A stretch of 64,000 nt of DNA, from NCBI GenBank assembly GCA_021159225.1, contig JAGGSE010000232.1, positions 23,015 to 87,014 on the forward strand, read 5' to 3'. Each line of letters starts with the position of its first letter. Position 1 is the stretch's first letter. Positions 25,710 through 56,103 of the stretch are shown in pieces. The notes beneath the pieces were generated by a model. It did no database searches. It saw only the letters and a list, made by a program, of their open reading frames with translations, and was not told the origin of the DNA. The stretch is from a bacterium. Lineage in GTDB: Bacteria; Patescibacteriota; Minisyncoccia; Minisyncoccales; JAGGSE01. A program made the translations under genes and the position numbers.

Positions 25710-27602
25710 ATGATTACCGCTGTAACGTTTACGTCGGAAGATGTAGTCGCGTTTTTGAACACTACACTACCTTTTCACATTGAGGGCATTCCTTTAGTTG
25801 TAGTTGGACAGGATCAACGAGATCTTACCAAAGTCTTGAACTGTCGTACTTATGAAGGGGGAAAGACTTTTGGTAGGAAGTTACTTGCTGGATTAGAGAA
25901 GGTCGAAACGGAGTATTTTGTTTTTGTACACCCAAAGGCGGCTCTCTCTAATTTAGACTTCCTTGGTGAGGCTTTGAAAGTTCTTTCTTCCCCTGAAGTT
26001 GGTTTTGTAGTTCCTGGACTTCCTAAGGGTGTGGGACCACAGAGCTATAAGAGGAAAGACAGAGGAGCATTAGCTCGGATTGCCCCTTGGTGTTTCGCGT
26101 TCAGAACAGAGGAGGCTATTACTCTGTTTGAGAAAGCTCTGAAGGTGTTTCAAGACGAGCGAATTGTTCAGCTTGTATGTTATGAGCTGATGAAGCAAGG
26201 TCGTTTTAGCTATGTACTCCCAATGTACACTTTGGATATGGAAGAGGATTTTAGTGATCTGAAACTTGACGCGAGGTTCAGAACTCAACCGTTGGAGCCA
26301 GTATTAATCTATCAATATCGCCGGTTGAAGGACATCCCCTCTACTGCGAAATCTTTGTTCAAGGATGTCATTGTTTGCACTCCTTTAGACGTTCCTGAAA
26401 TTGATCAGGGAAAGTTGATTTTTGTTCTGAGAGAGGGTGAGGATTTTGCCGATATTTTTACCCTTGAGCAATTGCAAAGGATGTGTGACAATCCTGATCC
26501 GTTTGTTTTCGCGTACCAATTTCCTGTACTACGGACTTGGTCGGATAATCGATATTTGAAAGATCAAGTTACTTGGGAAATTAGGGCTTTTGCTTCCTTT
26601 GAAAAGATTGCCCCGCGTATTTTGATTAATCCTTACTACGGGCAACAGCTTCCTTATGAAGGCCTACGCCCAGTTAATGTGCCCATTATCAAGAAGGTTA
26701 ATGACTTACCCGACAATTGTTCTATTGCGAGACTTCGTACTCCTACCTTGACTATTGCAACGATTATGAAGGACGAAATGAAAAACCTCCCCACGTATTT
26801 GGGCACTGCTCTTCCTTTTGCTCAACAGGTGATTTTGGTAGACACCGGTTCTCAAGATGAATCTCTGTCTTTTGCAAAGCGCTTTGGAGCTGAGGTGTTA
26901 GAGACTAAATTAGATAAAGACTTCTCTAAAGCGCGGAATTTGTACTTACAGAGGGCGAACGGCACTTGGCTCCTTCAACAGGACCTGGACGAAATTGTTG
27001 ACTATAAGCAGATTTACGCAGTGATGTTGGAAACACCTGAGAATACAGACGCGGTCCAGCTTCAGGTGCACAATTTAACTCCGCAAGAGGGGACGGTCAT
27101 CTATCAAGATGCCATTCGTTTGGTTAAGAACCCACGAACTTGGTACTACTCAAATCGGGTTCACGAGACGTTTGAACGCTGCGCTACTGAGGAGAACCGT
27201 GTTGTATCACGAGTTAATGATGTAGTGATTTACCACCTAGGATTTCTGTCCCCACGCATGAAAGAGAAACTCTCTTTTTATCGAGAGTTGATCAACATGC
27301 AGTTAGAGGAGGAACCGGAAAACCCCTTACCGTATTTTAATCTCGCGCTCGATCTGTTGAACGAGTATGAAGAGCATCCTGAAAATTTGGACGTAGCGCT
27401 CAAACTCCTCCTTCAAGCAACTTCTCTCCATCCGAGTTTTGCCCTTGCACAGTACGAAGTTTCGAGAGTATATTGTCAAAAAGCACTCGAGGCAATTGAG
27501 AGGACCCTCGAAGTTGTGCCACCTCAACATCCTATGGTGAATGCTATTAAGAAGGTTTACGGACCTTTGAAAGAGTACACCAAAAGGTATATTGTGAGAT
27601 GA
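25710..27602 (+). CDS. family-2 glycosyltransferase with TPR-like C-terminus (630 aa)
   Basis: LTIATIMKDEMKNLPTYLGTALPFAQQVILVDTGSQDESLSFAKRFGAEV...LQQDLDEIV is a GT-A fold pattern with D.DE. TPR-like helices occupy the last ~100 aa. The N-terminal half may be a second GT-like domain. Confidence 0.7.
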   Translation: MITAVTFTSEDVVAFLNTTLPFHIEGIPLVVVGQDQRDLTKVLNCRTYEGGKTFGRKLLAGLEKVETEYFVFVHPKAALSNLDFLGEALKVLSSPEVGFVVPGLPKGVGPQSYKRKDRGALARIAPWCFAFRTEEAITLFEKALKVFQDERIVQLVCYELMKQGRFSYVLPMYTLDMEEDFSDLKLDARFRTQPLEPVLIYQYRRLKDIPSTAKSLFKDVIVCTPLDVPEIDQGKLIFVLREGEDFADIFTLEQLQRMCDNPDPFVFAYQFPVLRTWSDNRYLKDQVTWEIRAFASFEKIAPRILINPYYGQQLPYEGLRPVNVPIIKKVNDLPDNCSIARLRTPTLTIATIMKDEMKNLPTYLGTALPFAQQVILVDTGSQDESLSFAKRFGAEVLETKLDKDFSKARNLYLQRANGTWLLQQDLDEIVDYKQIYAVMLETPENTDAVQLQVHNLTPQEGTVIYQDAIRLVKNPRTWYYSNRVHETFERCATEENRVVSRVNDVVIYHLGFLSPRMKEKLSFYRELINMQLEEEPENPLPYFNLALDLLNEYEEHPENLDVALKLLLQATSLHPSFALAQYEVSRVYCQKALEAIERTLEVVPPQHPMVNAIKKVYGPLKEYTKRYIVR

Positions 27603-28560: not shown

Positions 28561-28989
28561 ATGATTTATTTGCACGAAGTTCAGTCGGATTTGAGTAGTA
28601 AGATTGAGTCCGTTTTGACGGATTTGGATCAAACGTATAATTTGGGGTTGATTAGAGCTCCGGTGATAGTTTCCTCCTTACCAGAGGATCGCGTTACTCC
28701 TTCTACTTACTTGAAAATGGAAGAGGTTTCAAGTCAAGAGAAGGTTTTCTTTCGGTGTACTGGAACGTTACTCGTTGAGTTATCTTTTGAGATAGGTGAA
28801 GATGTGGCTTCGAGCCTGATCCGGAAGTTAGGTAATAAGTTGCAAGATCAATTGGAGCGAAGAAATAATACTACCCATACCTACTATTCAGGTAGTGTTA
28901 AAAGAGTCACGTGGTCTCTTCCTAAGGAAGAGATGGTTAGAACAATTAAAGTTGAGTTCGAGGTACAAGGCATTGAGCAACCAATCTAG
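28561..28989 (+). CDS. hypothetical neck/tail-terminator-position protein
   Basis: The call rests on its position between the gp10-like gene and the tail tube gene. No motif was recognised. Confidence 0.4.
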   Translation: MIYLHEVQSDLSSKIESVLTDLDQTYNLGLIRAPVIVSSLPEDRVTPSTYLKMEEVSSQEKVFFRCTGTLLVELSFEIGEDVASSLIRKLGNKLQDQLERRNNTTHTYYSGSVKRVTWSLPKEEMVRTIKVEFEVQGIEQPI

Positions 28990-29209
28990 TGCTTGGAAGT
29001 GCTCAAGTTGTGGGGCCGTCCTAGGTTACCTGGATGGTACAGACATCTTGCGTATCAAGTATAAGGACTTATACTTTTACGTAAATGTTATAAGAGGAGC
29101 TTCGTTGATAAAGTGTTTGTGTCGTAAGTGTGGTAAAGTTAATGAAGTTATGGCGAAAGCGATGAAGATGAGTGAACCTGCTGTGATCGAACTGGAGAAG
29201 TACTTGTAG
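28973..29209 (+). CDS. zinc-ribbon protein (Mu Com-like layout)
   Basis: Two CxxC pairs (CSSCGAVL ... CRKCGKVNEV) are separated by a beta-like segment. The start is probably TTG 28973. Confidence 0.4.
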   Translation: MSNQSSAWKCSSCGAVLGYLDGTDILRIKYKDLYFYVNVIRGASLIKCLCRKCGKVNEVMAKAMKMSEPAVIELEKYL

Positions 29210-29291
29210 TGAGTTAGGTTGTTGAGGTACACACTTAATTTGAGGAGGTGAGAATTGTAAATGAACACACCAACTTATAACACCAAAAGAT

Positions 29292-30498
29292 TGAGTTTCG
29301 GGCCTAAGTGACACTGGGCCCGTAAAACCTCTGCTGATCAACGGGGAAACACAATGGTATCCACTCAGCTAAATGAGATTTTAGATGGATTAATTTTCAG
29401 TGATGGGCATATTGCTTATTGTAAGGCTGGTGACTATAGGTTCGAGTTGGGGACGACCAAGCGTTTGTACGCAGAGCAAGTTTGTAACCTTCTTCGTCCT
29501 GTTATTTCCTGTTCTATTAGAGAACAAGTACGTATTGGATTTGGGAAGAAATTTATCTCTTACAGAGTTGTTGGATATAAAGCTCCTGTTATGAAGAATC
29601 TTCACTATCGTTGGTATGATGATAAAAAGAAAAAGCTTCCCAAAGATTTTAGATGGACGCCTACTACTTTGAACGTTGCTTATTGTGGTGATGGTACTGT
29701 TATTGAGAATAGCCCGACTATGTGCTTAAATAGTTGGGCGGTTCCCGAGGTGAAAGAGATAGTTAGGTGCTTTGAAGAGTTGGGCTTGTATGGGACGGTT
29801 GTCCAAACCCCAACAGGACCGATTTTTAGGTTACATCAAGATTGTGCCCTAGATTTCTTCGAGTACATAGGAGACCCACTAATTCCGTTTCACTCTTATA
29901 AGTGGATTACCGTTGTCAACCCCCAGCAAGCAGTTCGCGCGACTCTGTGGGACGATGACCTAGCTCAAAAGGTTGCGAGGTGTATTAAGAAGATTATGAT
30001 TTTACGCGTTTGGGGAGGTTCGAAGGAACGGCGGTACTTGTCGTACTTTCCTGAGTTAGTCGTAATGGTTAATGATAAAGACGTTAAAGATGCCCTTCAG
30101 AGAATCAGAACTTCAAGGAAGAAAGGTGAGGTTGTAGTTAGAGGTCGACAAGCGAAACGTGTTTTAGAAAGGGTCCATTTGTTTCTTCCGGACGATAAAC
30201 GAATGTTAGCTACAATTGCGTTAGCTTTGCCTCTTGGGCGGAGGAAGAAAGATTTGAAGGAAGTTCTATATCAGTTTTTCTGGACGAAATTTAATGAATT
30301 AAATCCGCCCGAGAGAAGACGGGGACCCAAAAGAGAGTTGAATAGCGAACTGCGGCTGCAGAGACTGAGCGTAGAGGACACTAACCTCTTTCAGGATCTG
30401 GTTAGTGTATACGACAGTCCGACCCCTACGGTGACGTAGGGAAGTAGTTGTACTACTTGCCCGAAAGGGTCAAGAAAAATAACAGGTTAAAGCGGGTG
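29292..30498 (+). mobile_element. hypothetical self-splicing (group I-type) intron carrying the homing endonuclease gene
   Basis: This is inference only. An orphan RBS plus 16-codon ORF lies upstream, and the tail tube ORF has no RBS. A U precedes the proposed 5' splice site and a G precedes the proposed 3' splice site. Hairpins, including a GAAA tetraloop, flank the endonuclease ORF. Confidence 0.25.
29354..30439 (+). CDS. LAGLIDADG-family homing endonuclease
   Basis: Two LAGLIDADG-type motifs are present: LDGLIFSDGHI and LNVAYCGDGTV. The C-terminal region is basic. Confidence 0.75.
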   Translation: MVSTQLNEILDGLIFSDGHIAYCKAGDYRFELGTTKRLYAEQVCNLLRPVISCSIREQVRIGFGKKFISYRVVGYKAPVMKNLHYRWYDDKKKKLPKDFRWTPTTLNVAYCGDGTVIENSPTMCLNSWAVPEVKEIVRCFEELGLYGTVVQTPTGPIFRLHQDCALDFFEYIGDPLIPFHSYKWITVVNPQQAVRATLWDDDLAQKVARCIKKIMILRVWGGSKERRYLSYFPELVVMVNDKDVKDALQRIRTSRKKGEVVVRGRQAKRVLERVHLFLPDDKRMLATIALALPLGRRKKDLKEVLYQFFWTKFNELNPPERRRGPKRELNSELRLQRLSVEDTNLFQDLVSVYDSPTPTVT

Positions 30499-30998
30499 TG
30501 CTTTATATTGGAAGCGCCGGCCAAACACCTACTATTGATATAGGCGCTGTTAAGACTGGAGCAACTCTAACATTTACTCGAGATAAACTCGAGGTTAAAC
30601 AGGGTTCTCCCGAGAAGTTGATCAAACAGTGGGTTGTTACTGAGACAGTTAAACTAGATGTTGTTGGTCATGAATGGAATCTTGAGAATTTGAGGTATGC
30701 TATTGGTTGTGGTATCATTCAAACTTCGGGAAATGAGAAGACGATGGATTTCGGCGGAGATATGGAAGTTACTGAAGCGTCGCTGAAGTTCGTTCACCAG
30801 ATGCCTGCTGGAGGAACTGTGGAAATTGATATTTGGAGAGCTCAGTCCGCAGGAGAACTCTCGATCGAGTTTGGGAACGATCCACACGAATTCCCTTACT
30901 CGTTCGTTGCTCTGGATGCCGATACTGCTTGGGATGGCACTACCTTGGATGAGAGGGGAAGGTTGTGCCGAATTAGGTTAATCGGTGACTTCTCCTAA
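30498..30998 (+). CDS. major tail tube protein (N-terminus possibly encoded upstream at 29261-29291)
   Basis: The 166-aa gene lies directly before the chaperone pair and the tape measure gene. It has a GTG start with no recognisable RBS. Confidence 0.55.
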   Translation: MLYIGSAGQTPTIDIGAVKTGATLTFTRDKLEVKQGSPEKLIKQWVVTETVKLDVVGHEWNLENLRYAIGCGIIQTSGNEKTMDFGGDMEVTEASLKFVHQMPAGGTVEIDIWRAQSAGELSIEFGNDPHEFPYSFVALDADTAWDGTTLDERGRLCRIRLIGDFS

Positions 30999-53451: not shown

Positions 53452-56103
53452 ATGGCAACTGAAGTTGTAAAGATAGTCGATACAGGAGGAAGTGGAGATT
53501 ACTCATCTCTAGCTGCTTGGGAAGCAGACTTCGGGAGCTGTACCCAGTCGAACTACCCTTCTATGTCTGGAGACGGTGACCTTGTGGGAGCGGACTTGAT
53601 CGCTGTTGCTGATTGTAGGTGTTCAACTGGGGATGAGGATGATAGTGCAGTTACTATTGATGGATGGACTTCTGTAGACTCGGATCACTACATTAGGATT
53701 TGGACCGATCCAGATCAGGGGTACAGACACCCAGGGAAATGGGATGACACAAAGTACAGGCTTGTGCTCTCCGAAGGAACTATTTTTGACATACAAGAAG
53801 AGTATGTGAGACTTATTGGCTTACAGATGAAAGGAACGAGATCGACAGGGTCTCAGTTGTTGATACATACATATTACACAAGCCGTTATCTGCGGGTCGA
53901 AAAATGTATCCTCTGTAGAGAGAATGCTGGTGGAACAGTAAATACTGGAATTAGTTGTGATAATTCTGCTGTACAAATTTATTTGGTCAATAATCTTTTT
54001 TATGACATACCTCAATATGCCATTCGTGGAAACGACTATTACTACTTATACAACAATACTATTATCAACTGTGGTACTGGTGTAGATGGTGGATCATCAG
54101 GGTATTGCAGAGCTATCAACAACATTGTTGACTGTACTACTTGTTTTGTTGGAGTTTTCGACTCTGATTCAGATTTCAACATCTCGTCAGATGATACAGC
54201 TCCAGGACCAAATTCAATCCATAATGCTACGGTCACTTTTGTAGACGCAGCTAATGGCGACTTTCACCTTGATGCTTCTGATACAGTAGCTAGAGACGCA
54301 GGTACAGACCTTTCATCTGATCCTTATTTAGCTTTCACTGACGACATCGATGGTGAAACTCGCTCTGCTCCTTGGGATATTGGAGTGGATGAATATGTGA
54401 GCGGAGGTGGAGGAGTACTTACAGCTATAGCTGATATACTATTAGCGTCTCTCACTCCGGCCACGTCGTTTAGCGTACTCAGGAGTATATCAGCTTCCCT
54501 CAGTTCTCTAAGCACTACTTCTCTTTCCCACTTAGGACTGCTCCTTACCCTTACTTCAAACATTCAACCTAGTTCCTCTACTGACGAGATTATCCTCTCT
54601 TTAACTAAACTAGCGATGGTCGGTGTAAGTAGTCAATCAACTACTGCCGATTCGGATTTAGTCATCTTACGGTCGCTGTTAAGTAACGTACTCCCAGTCT
54701 CTGACTCTAGCATCTTTCATTTAGATATACTGAGGAACGCTTTAACACAATCTCAGGTTGGTACGTTTACTCCGAGTGGTGCTCTCTCAGTACTACGCCG
54801 TGTAACTAGTTCTGAGCCAATTCAGTCGTACGCAAGCACTACTGCCCTCAGAGTTTTGAGGAATCTCACAAGCTCGCTACAAGCGCAGTCTTTTACATCA
54901 GCTCTGATTCACTTACACGTAGTTAGGGAGTTGCTGGCAAATATACCCTTGCAATCCGACGCCTCTGACGAAGTCATACTTTCGCTGGCCGAGCTGTTTA
55001 CAGCGATCGCGAACATTGTCACTGGAACAAGTACTAACACGCCACGTCTCTTGGTACTCCGGTCACTTGTAACGAGCGCTTCTGTGTTGACGGACTCCAA
55101 CAGTGTAGTACTTCGACTACTGAAAAGGGTGTTTACCTACGTTTTGAGTCACACTGTTACGTCACCTACGACATTGAACGTTCTACGGATTGCTTTAAAC
55201 TCGATCACCGCACAATCGTCAACTCCCGACGACGCCGAACTTCTCCTAGCGCAGTTGATCACAGCAGTCTCAAACATTCTTGCGCTAGTTATACCTTCAA
55301 CTACTTCTCTGGCAATAAAACGAGCTCTCGTATCACATATTCAAACGACTACTGGCACGGGCGATGTACCTCTTGAGTTATTGAGAGAAGTGCTCGTTAA
55401 TATTTTAAGTCAAGCAAGTGGTTCAACAGCTCCGCTACGAGTGCTAAGACCTGTTTCGAGTGCTACCTCAGTCCAAACACTGGCTGCTGATGACGTTGTC
55501 TTGTTGTTAGTCGAAGTGCTTATTGCTGCGGCCAACGTTGTAACTACTGTTACTACCAGTGAAGTTAGTTCGAATGTACTACGCGAGTTGTTAACACTAA
55601 CCGAAGTTAAGACTACCTCTTCAGATTCTGTTGAACTTTCTATTGCCGCGCTCATAAAAGCAGCCGCTGATGTTGTTTCACAAGTTCTTACTGGTAATGC
55701 GAAGTTCTCGATATTAAGACTGATTTCAACTGAAGTTCAAACTCAAACCGCTTCGCACGCTGTGGTACTCGAGCTGATTCGCTCTGTTACTTCTGCTATT
55801 CAGGCCGCTGTTACGTCGTCGAACAGCGTCGGGCTAATAATCGTTAAAGTTGGGCAAGTAGAGATTGTAGTCACTGCTCAGGTTGCTCAAGCAGCTCTCG
55901 CGATTCTAAAGGCACTTGCTATAGATATTACCTCTAACACCATTACTGCGGATGTGTTGCTCAGGGTACTAAGATCGACATCTTTGGGAGTAGATAGTAC
56001 GACCTTAACTGGAGCGGTTGAGTTGATCACTACCATGTTAGGTTTGATTGTAGACACAACTATAGAATCGCTTACGCCGAGGCGAACCATAGAGGAGGTT
56101 TAA
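53452..56103 (+). CDS. tailspike-like protein: right-handed beta-helix domain plus long Ser/Thr/Leu/Val repeat rod
   Basis: Beta-helix-type repeats include NNLFYDIPQYAIRGN, YNNTIINCGTGV and INNIVDCTTCF. The terminal block is GDFHLDASDTVARDAGTD...DIDGETRSAPWDIGVDEY. About 26 degenerate repeats follow. Confidence 0.6.
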   Translation: MATEVVKIVDTGGSGDYSSLAAWEADFGSCTQSNYPSMSGDGDLVGADLIAVADCRCSTGDEDDSAVTIDGWTSVDSDHYIRIWTDPDQGYRHPGKWDDTKYRLVLSEGTIFDIQEEYVRLIGLQMKGTRSTGSQLLIHTYYTSRYLRVEKCILCRENAGGTVNTGISCDNSAVQIYLVNNLFYDIPQYAIRGNDYYYLYNNTIINCGTGVDGGSSGYCRAINNIVDCTTCFVGVFDSDSDFNISSDDTAPGPNSIHNATVTFVDAANGDFHLDASDTVARDAGTDLSSDPYLAFTDDIDGETRSAPWDIGVDEYVSGGGGVLTAIADILLASLTPATSFSVLRSISASLSSLSTTSLSHLGLLLTLTSNIQPSSSTDEIILSLTKLAMVGVSSQSTTADSDLVILRSLLSNVLPVSDSSIFHLDILRNALTQSQVGTFTPSGALSVLRRVTSSEPIQSYASTTALRVLRNLTSSLQAQSFTSALIHLHVVRELLANIPLQSDASDEVILSLAELFTAIANIVTGTSTNTPRLLVLRSLVTSASVLTDSNSVVLRLLKRVFTYVLSHTVTSPTTLNVLRIALNSITAQSSTPDDAELLLAQLITAVSNILALVIPSTTSLAIKRALVSHIQTTTGTGDVPLELLREVLVNILSQASGSTAPLRVLRPVSSATSVQTLAADDVVLLLVEVLIAAANVVTTVTTSEVSSNVLRELLTLTEVKTTSSDSVELSIAALIKAAADVVSQVLTGNAKFSILRLISTEVQTQTASHAVVLELIRSVTSAIQAAVTSSNSVGLIIVKVGQVEIVVTAQVAQAALAILKALAIDITSNTITADVLLRVLRSTSLGVDSTTLTGAVELITTMLGLIVDTTIESLTPRRTIEEV
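54415..56079 (+). repeat. about 26 degenerate tandem repeats of about 21 aa (protein level) in the tailspike
   Basis: Units look like VLRSISASLSSLSTTSLSHLG, ILRSLLSNVLPVSDSSIFHLD, VLRNLTSSLQAQSFTSALIHLH and VLRELLTLTEVKTTSSDSVE. The DNA copies are diverged. Confidence 0.6.

What the first reader, a model, noticed from the sequence alone, without database searches (positions are those of the whole stretch)
29261..30998. The tail tube gene may be split by a homing-endonuclease-carrying intron
Five observations point this way.
1. The presumed tail tube ORF starts at GTG 30498 with no Shine-Dalgarno sequence. Almost every other gene here has GGAGG.
2. About 1.2 kb upstream, GAGGAGG is followed by ATG 29261 and a 16-codon ORF (MNTPTYNTKRLSFGPK*) that goes nowhere.
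3. A LAGLIDADG endonuclease gene lies between them. That class mostly resides in group I introns or inteins.
4. Joining after U29291 to the base after G30498 keeps the frame (AGA-T|TG-CTT) and gives MNTPTYNTKRLLYIGSAGQTPTIDIG.... It also satisfies the group I rule of U before the 5' splice site and G at the intron 3' end.
5. Hairpins flank the endonuclease ORF: CGGGCC/GGCCCG at 29299-29322, AAGTAGT/ACTACTT at 30442-30458, and a CCC-GAAA-GGG tetraloop hairpin at 30460-30469.

There are weaknesses. Only about 120 nt of the proposed intron are non-coding, so core helices would have to overlap the ORF. I also could not find a convincing P1/IGS pairing.
Basis: inference. Interest (0 to 1): 0.65.

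Follow-up and report, generated by a model that had tools for sequence, protein, structure and literature searches.

The report
Group I intron splits tail-tube gene
The phage's tail-tube gene is interrupted after codon 15 by a 1,189-base self-splicing-type (group I) intron that carries its own homing-endonuclease gene; this is a known kind of mobile element, here with its protein-coding frame running through most of the RNA's catalytic core.

Summary
Uninterrupted homologues of the tube protein begin MNTPTYTTKRLSFGPGVLYIG. DNA alignment puts the insertion exactly between CCT and GGT. So exon 1 is 29261-29305, the intron is 29306-30494 (1,189 nt), and exon 2 starts at 30495.

The intron has the group I hallmarks:
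- a P1 helix with a U29305•G29316 wobble at the 5' splice site;
- a P10 pairing with exon 2, and a terminal G30494;
- helices P3-P9.2, including a P7 with a bulged A.

In 12 related introns from phage tube and capsid genes, 98.3% of helix cells pair. 42 of 47 pairs show compensatory changes.

Rfam's group I model does not detect the window intron. ORF-less relatives score only below threshold.

The 361-aa ORF fills 91% of the intron:
- an I-SceI-like LAGLIDADG nuclease sits in loop L5;
- a degenerate LAGLIDADG-fold domain sits in loop L6;
- the linker and tail are encoded by core helices.

Related phages lack the intron, carry an ORF-less copy, or carry a second, HNH-containing intron about 40 nt downstream.

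Verdict: a new member of a known kind. Splicing itself is inferred, not shown.

The parts
29242..29248 (+). Shine-Dalgarno sequence GAGGAGG serving exon 1
   Evidence: Read directly from the sequence. It lies 12 nt upstream of ATG 29261.
29261..29305 (+). Exon 1 of the tail-tube (major tail) gene. It has 15 codons, MNTPTYNTKRLSFGP, and ends in U29305.
   Evidence: Intron-less homologues P0002 and P0005 begin MNTPTYTTKRLSFGPGV / MNVPEYSTKRLSFGPGV. The DNA alignment breaks after CCT.
29306..30494 (+). Group I intron, 1,189 nt, from AAGUG... to ...AAGCG, ending in terminal G30494
   Evidence: Boundaries come from alignment to the intron-less loci L001 and L004-L006.
29299..29322 (+). P1 helix. 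5' exon CGGGCCU (29299-29305) pairs with the internal guide GGGCCCG (29316-29322), with U29305•G29316 at the splice site. Loop bases ACACU (29311-29315) pair with exon 2 GGUGU (30495-30499) to form P10.
   Evidence: U•G is present in 10/10 family members with a known P1. P10 covaries with the exon in L020 (AACACUCU x GGAGUGUU).
29328..29334 (+). P3 5' strand CCUCUGC. Its partner is GUAGAGG at 30371-30377, about 1 kb away. P3 forms the pseudoknot with P7.
   Evidence: Seven different compensatory versions occur across the family, and 100% of cells pair.
29343..29346 (+). P4 5' strand GGGG. Its partner is CCCC at 29920-29923. It is flanked by the A-rich joins J4/5 (AAAC) and J5/4 (CAA).
29351..29364 (+). 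P5 5' strand ACAAUGGUAUCCAC. Its partner is 29902-29916, with U29907 bulged. The endonuclease start codon AUG 29354 lies inside this helix. P5 closes loop L5 (29365-29901).
   Evidence: The duplex is 14 bp at -17.5 kcal/mol. L020 has a perfect 14-bp equivalent with five compensatory pairs, and L030 has an 8-bp version.
29924..29937 (+). P6 (CAGC), an AA bulge, and P6a (GCAGUUCG) 5' strands. Partners are 30355-30358 and 30346-30353. Together they close loop L6 (29938-30345).
   Evidence: Compensatory changes occur in every family member. The helices are recovered by an unconstrained fold.
29354..30439 (+). Homing-endonuclease ORF of 361 aa.
- aa 1-185: I-SceI-like two-motif LAGLIDADG nuclease (in L5).
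- aa 183-194: linker encoded by P5'/J5/4/P4'/P6.
- aa ~195-320: degenerate LAGLIDADG-fold domain (in L6).
- aa 333-361: tail encoded by P6'-P9.
The stop codon UAG 30437-30439 lies in P9.
   Evidence: Pfam and PHROGs. AlphaFold and Foldseek. Homologue P0008 is 46% identical over 99% of the length.
30361..30420 (+). Catalytic centre.
- P7 5' strand is G-[A30362 bulge]-GACUG (30361-30367).
- P3' is at 30371-30377.
- P8 is ACACUAACC/GGUUAGUGU (30378-30386/30400-30408).
- J8/7 is AUACGA (30409-30414).
- P7 3' strand is CAGUCC (30415-20).
   Evidence: The R/S-like elements are conserved in 8 viral loci. P8 covaries completely.
30424..30494 (+). 3' peripheral domain.
- P9, with a GUGA loop (30424-30441).
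- P9.1 (30442-30458).
- P9.2, with a GAAA loop (30460-30469).
- A 25-nt tail ending in terminal G30494.
   Evidence: L9 is a GNRA loop in the nine family members where it can be read; L023 and L029 have longer P9 loops.
30495..30998 (+). Exon 2 of the tail-tube gene (GVLYIGSAG...GDFS*). The spliced product is 182 aa.
   Evidence: The spliced protein matches phrog_2175 (1.2e-9) and phrog_885, major tail protein (1.8e-3), from residue 6-7 onward.

Best explanation
Window 29306-30494 is a mobile group I intron inserted between codons 15 (CCU, Pro) and 16 (GGU, Gly) of the phage's major tail (tube) protein gene.

Proposed mechanism. All of this is inferred from the anatomy and from general knowledge of group I introns:
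1. The late transcript folds. The last seven exon bases (CGGGCCU) pair with the internal guide GGGCCCG to form P1, placing U29305•G29316 at the cleavage site.
2. A free guanosine binds the P7 pocket (G30363-C30419, next to bulged A30362) and attacks after U29305.
3. Terminal G30494 then enters the pocket, and P10 (ACACU x GGUGU) aligns exon 2.
4. The exons are ligated to ...UUCGGGCCU|GGUGUGCUU..., giving a 182-aa protein that starts MNTPTYNTKRLSFGPGVLYIG and is translated from the strong GAGGAGG site.

The endonuclease ORF. The intron also encodes a 361-aa protein whose start codon lies inside helix P5.
- The first 185 residues are a two-motif, I-SceI-like LAGLIDADG nuclease housed in loop L5.
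- The frame then reads through P5', P4' and P6 into loop L6, which encodes a second, catalytically degenerate LAGLIDADG-fold domain.
- It runs on through P6', P7, P3', P8, P7' and into P9.
- The nuclease presumably cuts intron-less tube genes of co-infecting relatives at the CCT|GGT site and so copies the intron in (homing).
- Ribosomes on this ORF would unfold the ribozyme, so translation of the nuclease and splicing of one RNA molecule should be mutually exclusive.
For: Shown here:
1. Six homologues were found. The two full-length ones (182 aa) are uninterrupted and align from residue 1 through the junction as ...RLSFGPGVLY.... They lie in syntenic phage tail modules.
2. DNA alignment breaks exactly at CCT|GGT.
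3. P1 with a U•G wobble, P10 and a terminal G are all present.
4. A search with the R...S core pattern found 8 viral loci with the same architecture in other genes. The capsid-gene copies also restore a continuous major-head-protein match when spliced.
5. Helix counts on 12 introns give 98.3% of cells paired and 42/47 pairs with changes on both sides. None of 500 shuffles reached this, and slid controls gave 34-43%. The 8-sequence version gave the same picture.
6. An unconstrained fold of the ORF-excised intron recovers P1, P4, P5, P6/P6a, P7, P8, P9, P9.1 and P9.2, with z = -7.1.
7. The same intron occupies the same codon boundary in L020/L033, in L030-32, and as an ORF-less copy of about 260 nt in L021. 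Presence/absence polymorphism of this kind is expected for a homing element.
8. The ORF-less relative L023 aligns full-length to Rfam Intron_gpI (31.5 bits, E 2e-4) with the same helix labels.
9. The endonuclease is supported by Pfam at 45.9 bits and PHROG at 3.5e-20. Foldseek top hits are all LAGLIDADG enzymes.
10. The interrupted arrangement occurs on about 10 independent contigs.
Against: - Rfam's Intron_gpI model gives no hit on the window intron, even on a 331-nt slice or at E<=10. It also finds nothing in L021.
- Family members that do hit stay below the gathering score (31.5 and 27.4 bits against 50).
- The helix strands used for the covariation counts were extracted and put in register by hand. 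This leans towards the structure, most of all for the local hairpins P5, P8, P9 and P9.1.
- The family was retrieved with a pattern taken from the window's own P7 region, so P7 conservation is circular.
- No RNA or protein data exist, so splicing, GTP dependence and endonuclease activity are untested.
- P4 in the window is only 4 bp.
- Identification of the host gene as the tail tube rests on synteny and weak profile matches.
Confidence: 0.93

Rival explanations
1. This is a free-standing homing-endonuclease gene inserted into the 5' end of the tube gene, with no splicing. The tube protein is made from GTG 30498 without its first 16 residues, and the 16-codon ORF is a dead remnant.
For: Gene callers annotate exactly this: a 166-aa product, P0001, on about 10 contigs. 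Rfam finds no intron.
Against: - GTG 30498 has no ribosome-binding site, whereas the remnant keeps a perfect GAGGAGG and an intact frame up to the exact homologous codon.
- The flanks form P1 and P10 with U•G and a terminal G.
- Long-range helices P3, P4, P5 and P6, spanning 0.4-1 kb, covary in four lineages.
- An ORF-less copy of the element exists at the same site. A free-standing HEG model cannot explain that.
Confidence: 0.04
2. The locus is a decaying pseudogene or an assembly artefact. The tube gene is broken and non-functional in this contig.
For: The window is metagenome-like and matches no cultured phage. One related public contig carries adapter sequence at its end.
Against: - The identical arrangement was recovered on about 10 contigs from different samples.
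- Both exons are intact and in phase.
- The endonuclease ORF is intact and conserved at 46% identity in a diverged copy.
- The tube gene is single-copy in an otherwise complete tail module.
Confidence: 0.02
3. It is another kind of intervening element: an intein, a group II intron, or a translational bypass.
For: LAGLIDADG genes also occur in inteins and in a few group II introns. Exon 1 and the endonuclease ORF happen to share a reading frame.
Against: - Against an intein: a UGA at 29309 separates exon 1 from the ORF, exon 2 is in a different frame, and the frame coincidence is not kept in L020.
- Against a group II intron: the intron starts AAGUG and ends GCG, not GUGYG...AY. There is no domain V and no group II Rfam hit.
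- Against a bypass: 1,189 nt is far beyond any known ribosomal hop.
Confidence: 0.01

Closest known systems
Group I introns in phage structural genes: the Staphylococcus phage Twort orf142 (tail tube) introns, and the mycobacteriophage Cluster J capsid and tail-gene introns
   Same: These are self-splicing group I introns that interrupt late virion genes, including a tail-tube gene. Some carry homing-endonuclease ORFs, and presence varies among close relatives (PMC11878797; PMC3706429).
   Different: There is no detectable sequence similarity to any cultured-phage record. The ORF here is a long LAGLIDADG protein on the sense strand that spans two loops. The Twort orf142 introns are small, as I recall (my own knowledge). 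The LittleE capsid intron ORF is on the opposite strand.
T4 td / nrdB-type mobile group I introns, with the endonuclease ORF looped out of P6a
   Same: A mobile ribozyme plus a homing endonuclease, with the ORF placed in a peripheral loop of the P4-P6 domain. The sister introns L022/L025/L028 carry a single-motif LAGLIDADG ORF in exactly this P6 position.
   Different: The T4 ORFs are GIY-YIG or HNH and are confined to one loop (my own knowledge). Here the ORF starts in P5, fills L5, reads through P5'-P4'-P6, fills L6, and continues through P7-P3'-P8-P7' into P9. That makes 91% of the intron coding. No P2 or P7.1/7.2 is seen in the window copy.
'Core creep' and mitochondrial group I introns whose LAGLIDADG ORFs overlap core helices (Edgell, Chalamcharla & Belfort 2011)
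   Same: The ORF extends into ribozyme core sequence at both ends. The core-encoded parts (linker aa 186-194 and tail aa 325-361) are the parts AlphaFold leaves disordered. That fits an extension without a structural role (PMC3073962).
   Different: Here the overlap also includes an internal crossing of the core, between two folded protein domains housed in two different loops. The concept was framed for terminal extensions.
I-SceI (monomeric two-motif LAGLIDADG endonuclease), and the I-CreI/I-MsoI single-domain fold
   Same: The N-half has two motifs with conserved Asp (..FSDGHI....CGDGTV..). It matches LAGLIDADG_2, the whole of phrog_11023, and I-SceI structures. The C-half model matches I-MsoI and I-CreI, with TM about 0.5 normalised to the target.
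   Different: A third LAGLIDADG-fold domain is appended. Its first helix (LAQKVARCIKK) has no acidic catalytic residue. Sequence searches find only six relatives among 1.8 billion representatives. The fold match is weak (E 3e-3 and worse).

Membership tests
Group I intron | The last 5'-exon base is U and forms a U•G wobble in P1 with the internal guide sequence | tested here: met
   U29305•G29316 sits within the 7-bp P1 (29299-305/29316-322). U•G is present in 10/10 related introns.
Group I intron | The intron ends in G (omega G), and the 3' exon can pair with the guide (P10) | tested here: met
   G30494 is the terminal base. P10 is ACACU (29311-15) x GGUGU (30495-99). In L020, P10 changes together with the exon.
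Group I intron | Conserved core of P3-P4-P5-P6 and P7-P3'-P8-P7' with the P3/P7 pseudoknot, supported by covariation | tested here: met
   98.3% of cells pair and 42/47 pairs have double changes, with 0/500 shuffles reaching this. MFE recovers all nested helices. Caveat: the strands were registered by hand.
Group I intron | Guanosine-binding P7 (a G-C pair next to a bulged nucleotide), with A-rich J4/5 and J8/7 joins | tested here: met
   The sequence pattern is G30361-[A30362]-G30363...C30419-C30420, with J4/5 AAAC, J5/4 CAA and J8/7 AUACGA. This is a pattern match only, not biochemistry.
Group I intron | Scores at or above the gathering threshold of Rfam RF00028 (Intron_gpI) | tested here: not met
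   There is no hit on the window at E<=10, even on a 331-nt slice. The ORF-less relative L023 scores 31.5 bits and the site-2 intron in L007 scores 27.4 bits, both below the gathering score of 50. This is a limit of one curated model, not a defining biochemical feature.
Group I intron | Removal restores an uninterrupted, conserved host reading frame | tested here: met
   The spliced product is MNTPTYNTKRLSFGP|GVLYIG, against the intron-less P0002 and P0005.
Group I intron | GTP-dependent self-splicing of the transcript | not testable with these tools
   This needs in-vitro transcription and splicing, or RT-PCR.
LAGLIDADG homing endonuclease | LAGLIDADG domain above the curated threshold, with acidic residues at the motif ends | tested here: met
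   PF03161 scores 45.9 bits against a cut-off of 25. phrog_11023 gives 3.5e-20 over its whole length. The motifs ..IFSDG.. and ..CGDGT.. are conserved in four homologues.
LAGLIDADG homing endonuclease | Cleaves the intron-less allele and promotes homing | not testable with these tools
   The only evidence is indirect. The same codon boundary is empty, filled, or filled with an ORF-less copy in related phages.
Phage major tail (tube) protein | Profile match and position between the neck/terminator genes and the chaperone-tape-measure genes | tested here: inconclusive
   Profile matches are weak: phrog_885, major tail protein, E 1.8e-3; phrog_2175 E 1.2e-9; no Pfam hit. Synteny is typical: a Neck1-like gene upstream, then a tail assembly chaperone and a 2,205-aa protein downstream.
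Intein | In-frame insertion without stop codons, with Hint splicing blocks | tested here: not met
   UGA 29309 lies between exon 1 and the ORF. Exon 2 is in another frame. No Hint domain was found.
Group II intron | 5' GUGYG, 3' AY, domain V, and usually an RT-maturase ORF | tested here: not met
   The intron begins AAGUG and ends AAGCG. No group II Rfam hit and no RT domain were found.

The most novel reading that the evidence does not exclude
The 361-aa ORF may record two successive invasions of one ribozyme. First, a degenerate, non-catalytic LAGLIDADG-fold domain resident in L6. It also occurs alone, in L021 unit B and in P0011. Second, a later I-SceI-like nuclease that landed in L5. The two are now fused in frame through the P5'-P4'-P6 core strands.

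On this reading the degenerate domain would serve as a maturase or RNA chaperone for its own intron, or as an added DNA-binding module. The complete overlap of ORF and core would couple nuclease translation and splicing as mutually exclusive fates of each transcript.
Probability: 0.2. Interest if true: 0.55.

Novelty: new member of a known kind. Interest (0 to 1): 0.4.

Why it matters
Practical consequences:
- Gene callers mis-annotate this essential virion gene as a 166-aa protein starting at a GTG with no ribosome-binding site. They drop the real start and 16 conserved N-terminal residues in at least 10 public contigs.
- The intron family is present in tube and capsid genes of uncultured phages but is invisible to Rfam's group I model at its curated threshold. 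Such introns are therefore probably under-counted in viromes.

Biological interest:
- The first ~30 codons of this tube gene are a hot spot. Three different intron/endonuclease combinations occur within about 45 nt in related phages.
- The locus gives a compact example of a homing-endonuclease frame threaded through almost the whole ribozyme core. This could be used to test how translation and splicing interfere.

Tried and rejected
- Rfam scans of the region (E<=10), of a 331-nt slice, of the whole window at gathering score, and of L021 found no group I hit. The one recurrent sub-threshold hit, Bacilli-1 sRNA at 18.6 bits, only reflects the P9 and P9.1 hairpins.
- tblastn and blastn against 50,697 GenBank phage records found nothing for the tube protein, the 4-kb region or the intron core.
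- My first attempt to place P4'/P6 next to the R element failed (the hairpin CCGCCCG...CGGGG at 30305-30324). That segment is deleted in L020. RNAduplex then pointed to 29910-29930, which matched the family consensus xAA-CCCG-...-AAGCAG.
- The alternative pairing UGAUCAACGG x CCGUUGUCA was rejected because it is not conserved in L020.
- Read-through of UGA 29309 to fuse exon 1 with the endonuclease was rejected. The shared frame is not kept in L020.
- Homology between the C-half and the single-motif LAGLIDADG ORFs of the capsid-gene introns was not significant: BLASTP E>1, hhalign probability 1.3%.
- Sequence searches of PDB with the whole protein and with the C-half profile were uninformative.
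- The full-length AlphaFold model was poor (pLDDT 50.8). Only the C-half model built on a 7-sequence alignment was usable.
- A second R-like site at 54691-54703 (2 mismatches) is within chance expectation.
- I did not assign a group I subgroup (IA/IB/IC).
Full report
**1. What is in the sequence**

- GAGGAGG (29242-29248) precedes ATG 29261 and a 16-codon ORF, MNTPTYNTKRLSFGPK*.
- A 361-aa ORF (29354-30439) follows. It matches Pfam LAGLIDADG_2 (E 7.7e-12, 45.9 bits, cut-off 25). Residues 2-185 match the whole of phrog_11023, 'homing endonuclease with LAGLIDADG motif' (E 3.5e-20).
- Next is a 166-codon ORF from GTG 30498 with no Shine-Dalgarno sequence.
A mechanical count gives 17 of 57.

**2. 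The decisive comparison**

A search with the hypothetical spliced protein found six relatives. Two of them, P0002 and P0005 (both 182 aa), are uninterrupted. They begin MNTPTYTTKRLSFGPGVLYIGAAG and MNVPEYSTKRLSFGPGVLYLGAAG. They lie in syntenic tail modules.

- The window's small ORF supplies ...RLSFGP.
- The frame upstream of GTG 30498 supplies GVLYIG.
- DNA alignment places the break exactly at CCT|GGT.

So exon 1 is 29261-29305, the intervening sequence is 29306-30494 (1,189 nt), and exon 2 starts at 30495. It would delete six conserved residues.

**3. It is a group I intron**

- The last exon bases CGGGCCU (29299-29305) pair with GGGCCCG (29316-29322).
- The five bases just 5' of the guide (ACACU, 29311-15) pair with the first exon-2 bases (GGUGU), forming P10.
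- The intron ends in G30494.

A pattern taken from the R- and S-like elements (CAGAGACUGAGCG...CGACAGUCCGA) retrieved eight viral loci with the same architecture. Three of them are short, essentially ORF-less copies: L023, L027 and L029. One of these, L023, aligns full-length to Rfam Intron_gpI (31.5 bits, E 2e-4, below the gathering score of 50) with helix labels that agree with mine.

Using these as a guide, I mapped the window intron:

| Element | Coordinates |
|---|---|
| J1/3 | UAAAA |
| P3 | 29328-34 / 30371-77 |
| P4 | 29343-46 / 29920-23 |
| P5 | 29351-64 / 29902-16 |
| P6 | 29924-27 / 30355-58 |
| P6a | 29930-37 / 30346-53 |
| J6/7 | CA |
| P7 | 30361-67 (A30362 bulged) / 30415-20 |
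| P8 | 30378-86 / 30400-08 |
| J8/7 | AUACGA |
| P9 (GUGA loop) | 30424-41 |
| P9.1 | 30442-58 |
| P9.2 (GAAA loop) | 30460-69 |

An unconstrained fold of the intron with L5 and L6 excised recovers every nested helix, with z = -7.1. P3 cannot appear in such a fold because it is the pseudoknot partner of P7.

**4. Covariation**

The same intron sits at the same codon boundary in three other lineages:
- L020/L033, whose endonuclease is 46% identical;
- L030-32, a groundwater phage whose endonuclease C-half is 31% identical to the window's; its copy has an added P2;
- L021, which holds an ORF-less copy of about 260 nt.

I tabulated helix strands from 12 introns: these four lineages plus the capsid-gene and other copies.
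- 98.3% of 537 cells form standard pairs.
- 42 of 47 pairs show changes on both sides.
- None of 500 shuffles reached the observed values.
- Sliding the partner by 1-3 columns drops pairing to 34-43%.

Examples of compensatory change:

| Helix | Window | L020 | L030 |
|---|---|---|---|
| P3 | CCUCUGC/GUAGAGG | CCUCCGC/GCGGAGG | AGUUUCC/GGAAACU |
| P5 | ACAAUGGUAUCCAC | perfect 14-bp GCUAUGUCGAUCCA/UGGAUCGACAUAGC | - |
| P6-P6a | CAGC-AA-GCAG/CUGC-G-GCUG | CAGG-AA-GCGG/CCGC-A-CCUG | - |

Caveats:
- I extracted and registered the strands by hand, joined with constant spacers. This favours the structure, mainly for the local hairpins.
- The long-range helices P1, P3, P4 and P6 are anchored by invariant flanking joins, so they are less open to choice.
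- P7 is invariant by construction of the search pattern and carries no information.

**5. What Rfam says**

The curated group I model finds nothing in the window:
- on the 2.2-kb region at E<=10;
- on a 331-nt slice;
- on the whole window at gathering score.

It also finds nothing in L021. I take this as insensitivity of one model to a divergent family that has kilobase-scale loop insertions. It is recorded as a membership criterion that was tested and not met.

**6. The endonuclease ORF**

The ORF occupies 1,086 of the 1,189 intron bases.
- Its AUG (29354) lies inside P5.
- Residues 1-185 are encoded in L5. They carry two LAGLIDADG motifs with conserved Asp (..IFSDGHI....CGDGTV..). The whole-protein model matches I-SceI structures over about 207 aligned columns.
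- Residues 183-194 are encoded by P5', J5/4, P4' and P6.
- Residues ~195-320 are encoded in L6.
- Residues 333-361 are encoded by P6a'-P6', J6/7, P7, P3', P8, P7' and P9. The stop codon UAG lies in the P9 3' strand.

An AlphaFold model of the C-half from a 7-sequence alignment is usable (pLDDT 74.5, with residues 10-135 above 80). It has the alpha-beta-beta-alpha-beta-beta-alpha topology. The core-encoded linker (C-half residues 1-9) and tail (140-176) fall below 50.

The top 39 Foldseek hits for this model are all LAGLIDADG enzymes (I-MsoI, I-CreI, E-DreI). The scores are weak: E from 3e-3 and TM about 0.5. Its first helix (LAQKVARCIKK) has no acidic residue, so I infer a degenerate, non-catalytic domain.

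This domain is rare, with six hits in 1.8 billion representatives. It also occurs without the nuclease half, in P0011 and in L021 unit B.

In the sister introns in a major-head-protein gene (L022, L025, L028), L6 instead carries an ordinary single-motif LAGLIDADG ORF (YLAGLFDGEG). I could not link it to the window's C-half by sequence.

ORF overlap with the core is the situation Edgell et al. called 'core creep' (PMC3073962). The internal crossing between two loops goes beyond the terminal extensions they described.

**7. Host gene**

The spliced 182-aa protein matches phrog_2175 (1.2e-9) and phrog_885, major tail protein (1.8e-3), from residue 6-7 onward. It lies between a Neck1-like gene upstream and a tail assembly chaperone and a 2,205-aa protein downstream. 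'Tail tube' is therefore likely but rests on weak profiles and synteny.

**8. Rivals**

- A free-standing endonuclease with a truncated tube protein does not explain the ORF-less copy, the long-range covariation, or the retained start site.
- An artefact or pseudogene is unlikely, given about 10 independent contigs and intact frames.
- An intein and a group II intron fail their defining features.

**9. Known or new**

Group I introns in phage late genes are established. Examples are the Twort orf142 tail-tube gene (PMC11878797) and the Cluster J mycobacteriophage capsid and tail genes (PMC3706429). A phrog_11023 LAGLIDADG ORF has also been reported in a Bastillevirinae DNA polymerase intron.

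This is a new member of a known kind. It has three unusual features:
- an unusual ORF layout;
- an intron family that Rfam misses;
- a marked insertion hot spot at the 5' end of the gene.

Splicing, GTP dependence and homing are all inferred. None was observed.

Noticed in passing
L007 3256-3920; L020 from 3889; L021 from ~3900; L008 1-300: Related phages carry a second, different group I intron about 40 nt downstream of the window's site, after ...TPT. Its ORF matches HNH_3 (in L007 on the sense strand between the R and S elements; in L021 on the opposite strand). Rfam Intron_gpI hits it below threshold in L007 (27.4 and 19.7 bits). The window's site 2 is uninterrupted. L020 carries both introns, separated by a 41-nt exon.
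   Followed up: partly
L021 3045-3865: At the window's insertion site, L021 has an ORF-less copy of the intron. A second unit with its own P3-P9 follows, encoding only the homologue of the window endonuclease's C-half. This is either a tandem or a nested (twintron-like) arrangement. The 3' splice site and exon-2 junction (…CUAACUGUG|CUUUAU) could not be resolved: a Gly-Val pair seems to be missing.
   Followed up: partly
L009 1-130: Another relative (P0006) has the tube frame interrupted just before LYLGASG, a few bases from the window's site. The interrupting element ends in a different ORF (...EFKKQEYLKILECYDS*). The contig is cut at its 5' end. This may be a third intron or endonuclease at the same hot spot.
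   Followed up: no
L022, L025/L026, L027, L028 (e.g. L025 5568-6280): The same intron family interrupts a major head protein gene (phrog_267, E 2.6e-10, with the match continuous across the predicted junction ...TGFIP|EIWSAK...). P1 is CAUCCCU/GGGGAUG. L022, L025 and L028 have a single-motif LAGLIDADG ORF (YLAGLFDGEG) in L6. L027 is nearly ORF-less.
   Followed up: partly
window 25710-27602 (+): A 630-aa ORF lies immediately upstream of the neck and tail genes. Syntenic homologues match glycosyltransferase family 2 (weakly in L001 and L003, clearly in L030). This is an unusual gene to find inside a virion structural module.
   Followed up: no
window 28895-29209 (+), overlapping 28561-28989: A small ORF with two CxxC pairs lies between the terminator-like gene and the tube gene, with zinc-ribbon-like weak Pfam hits. 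Relatives call a 78-81-aa product here. Its function is unknown.
   Followed up: no
L020 3967-3985: The public contig ends with CTGTCTCTTATACACATCT, which I recognise from memory as a Nextera transposase adapter. The last ~50 bases of that ENA contig are therefore library artefact, not phage sequence.
   Followed up: no
P0012 (466 aa): A metagenomic 'protein' reads through a C-half-like domain, an R...S core segment (LQRLNEGD...VCDSPNPQV), a LAGLIDADG_2 domain and another C-half-like domain. It is apparently a gene call running through tandem intron units of this family.
   Followed up: no
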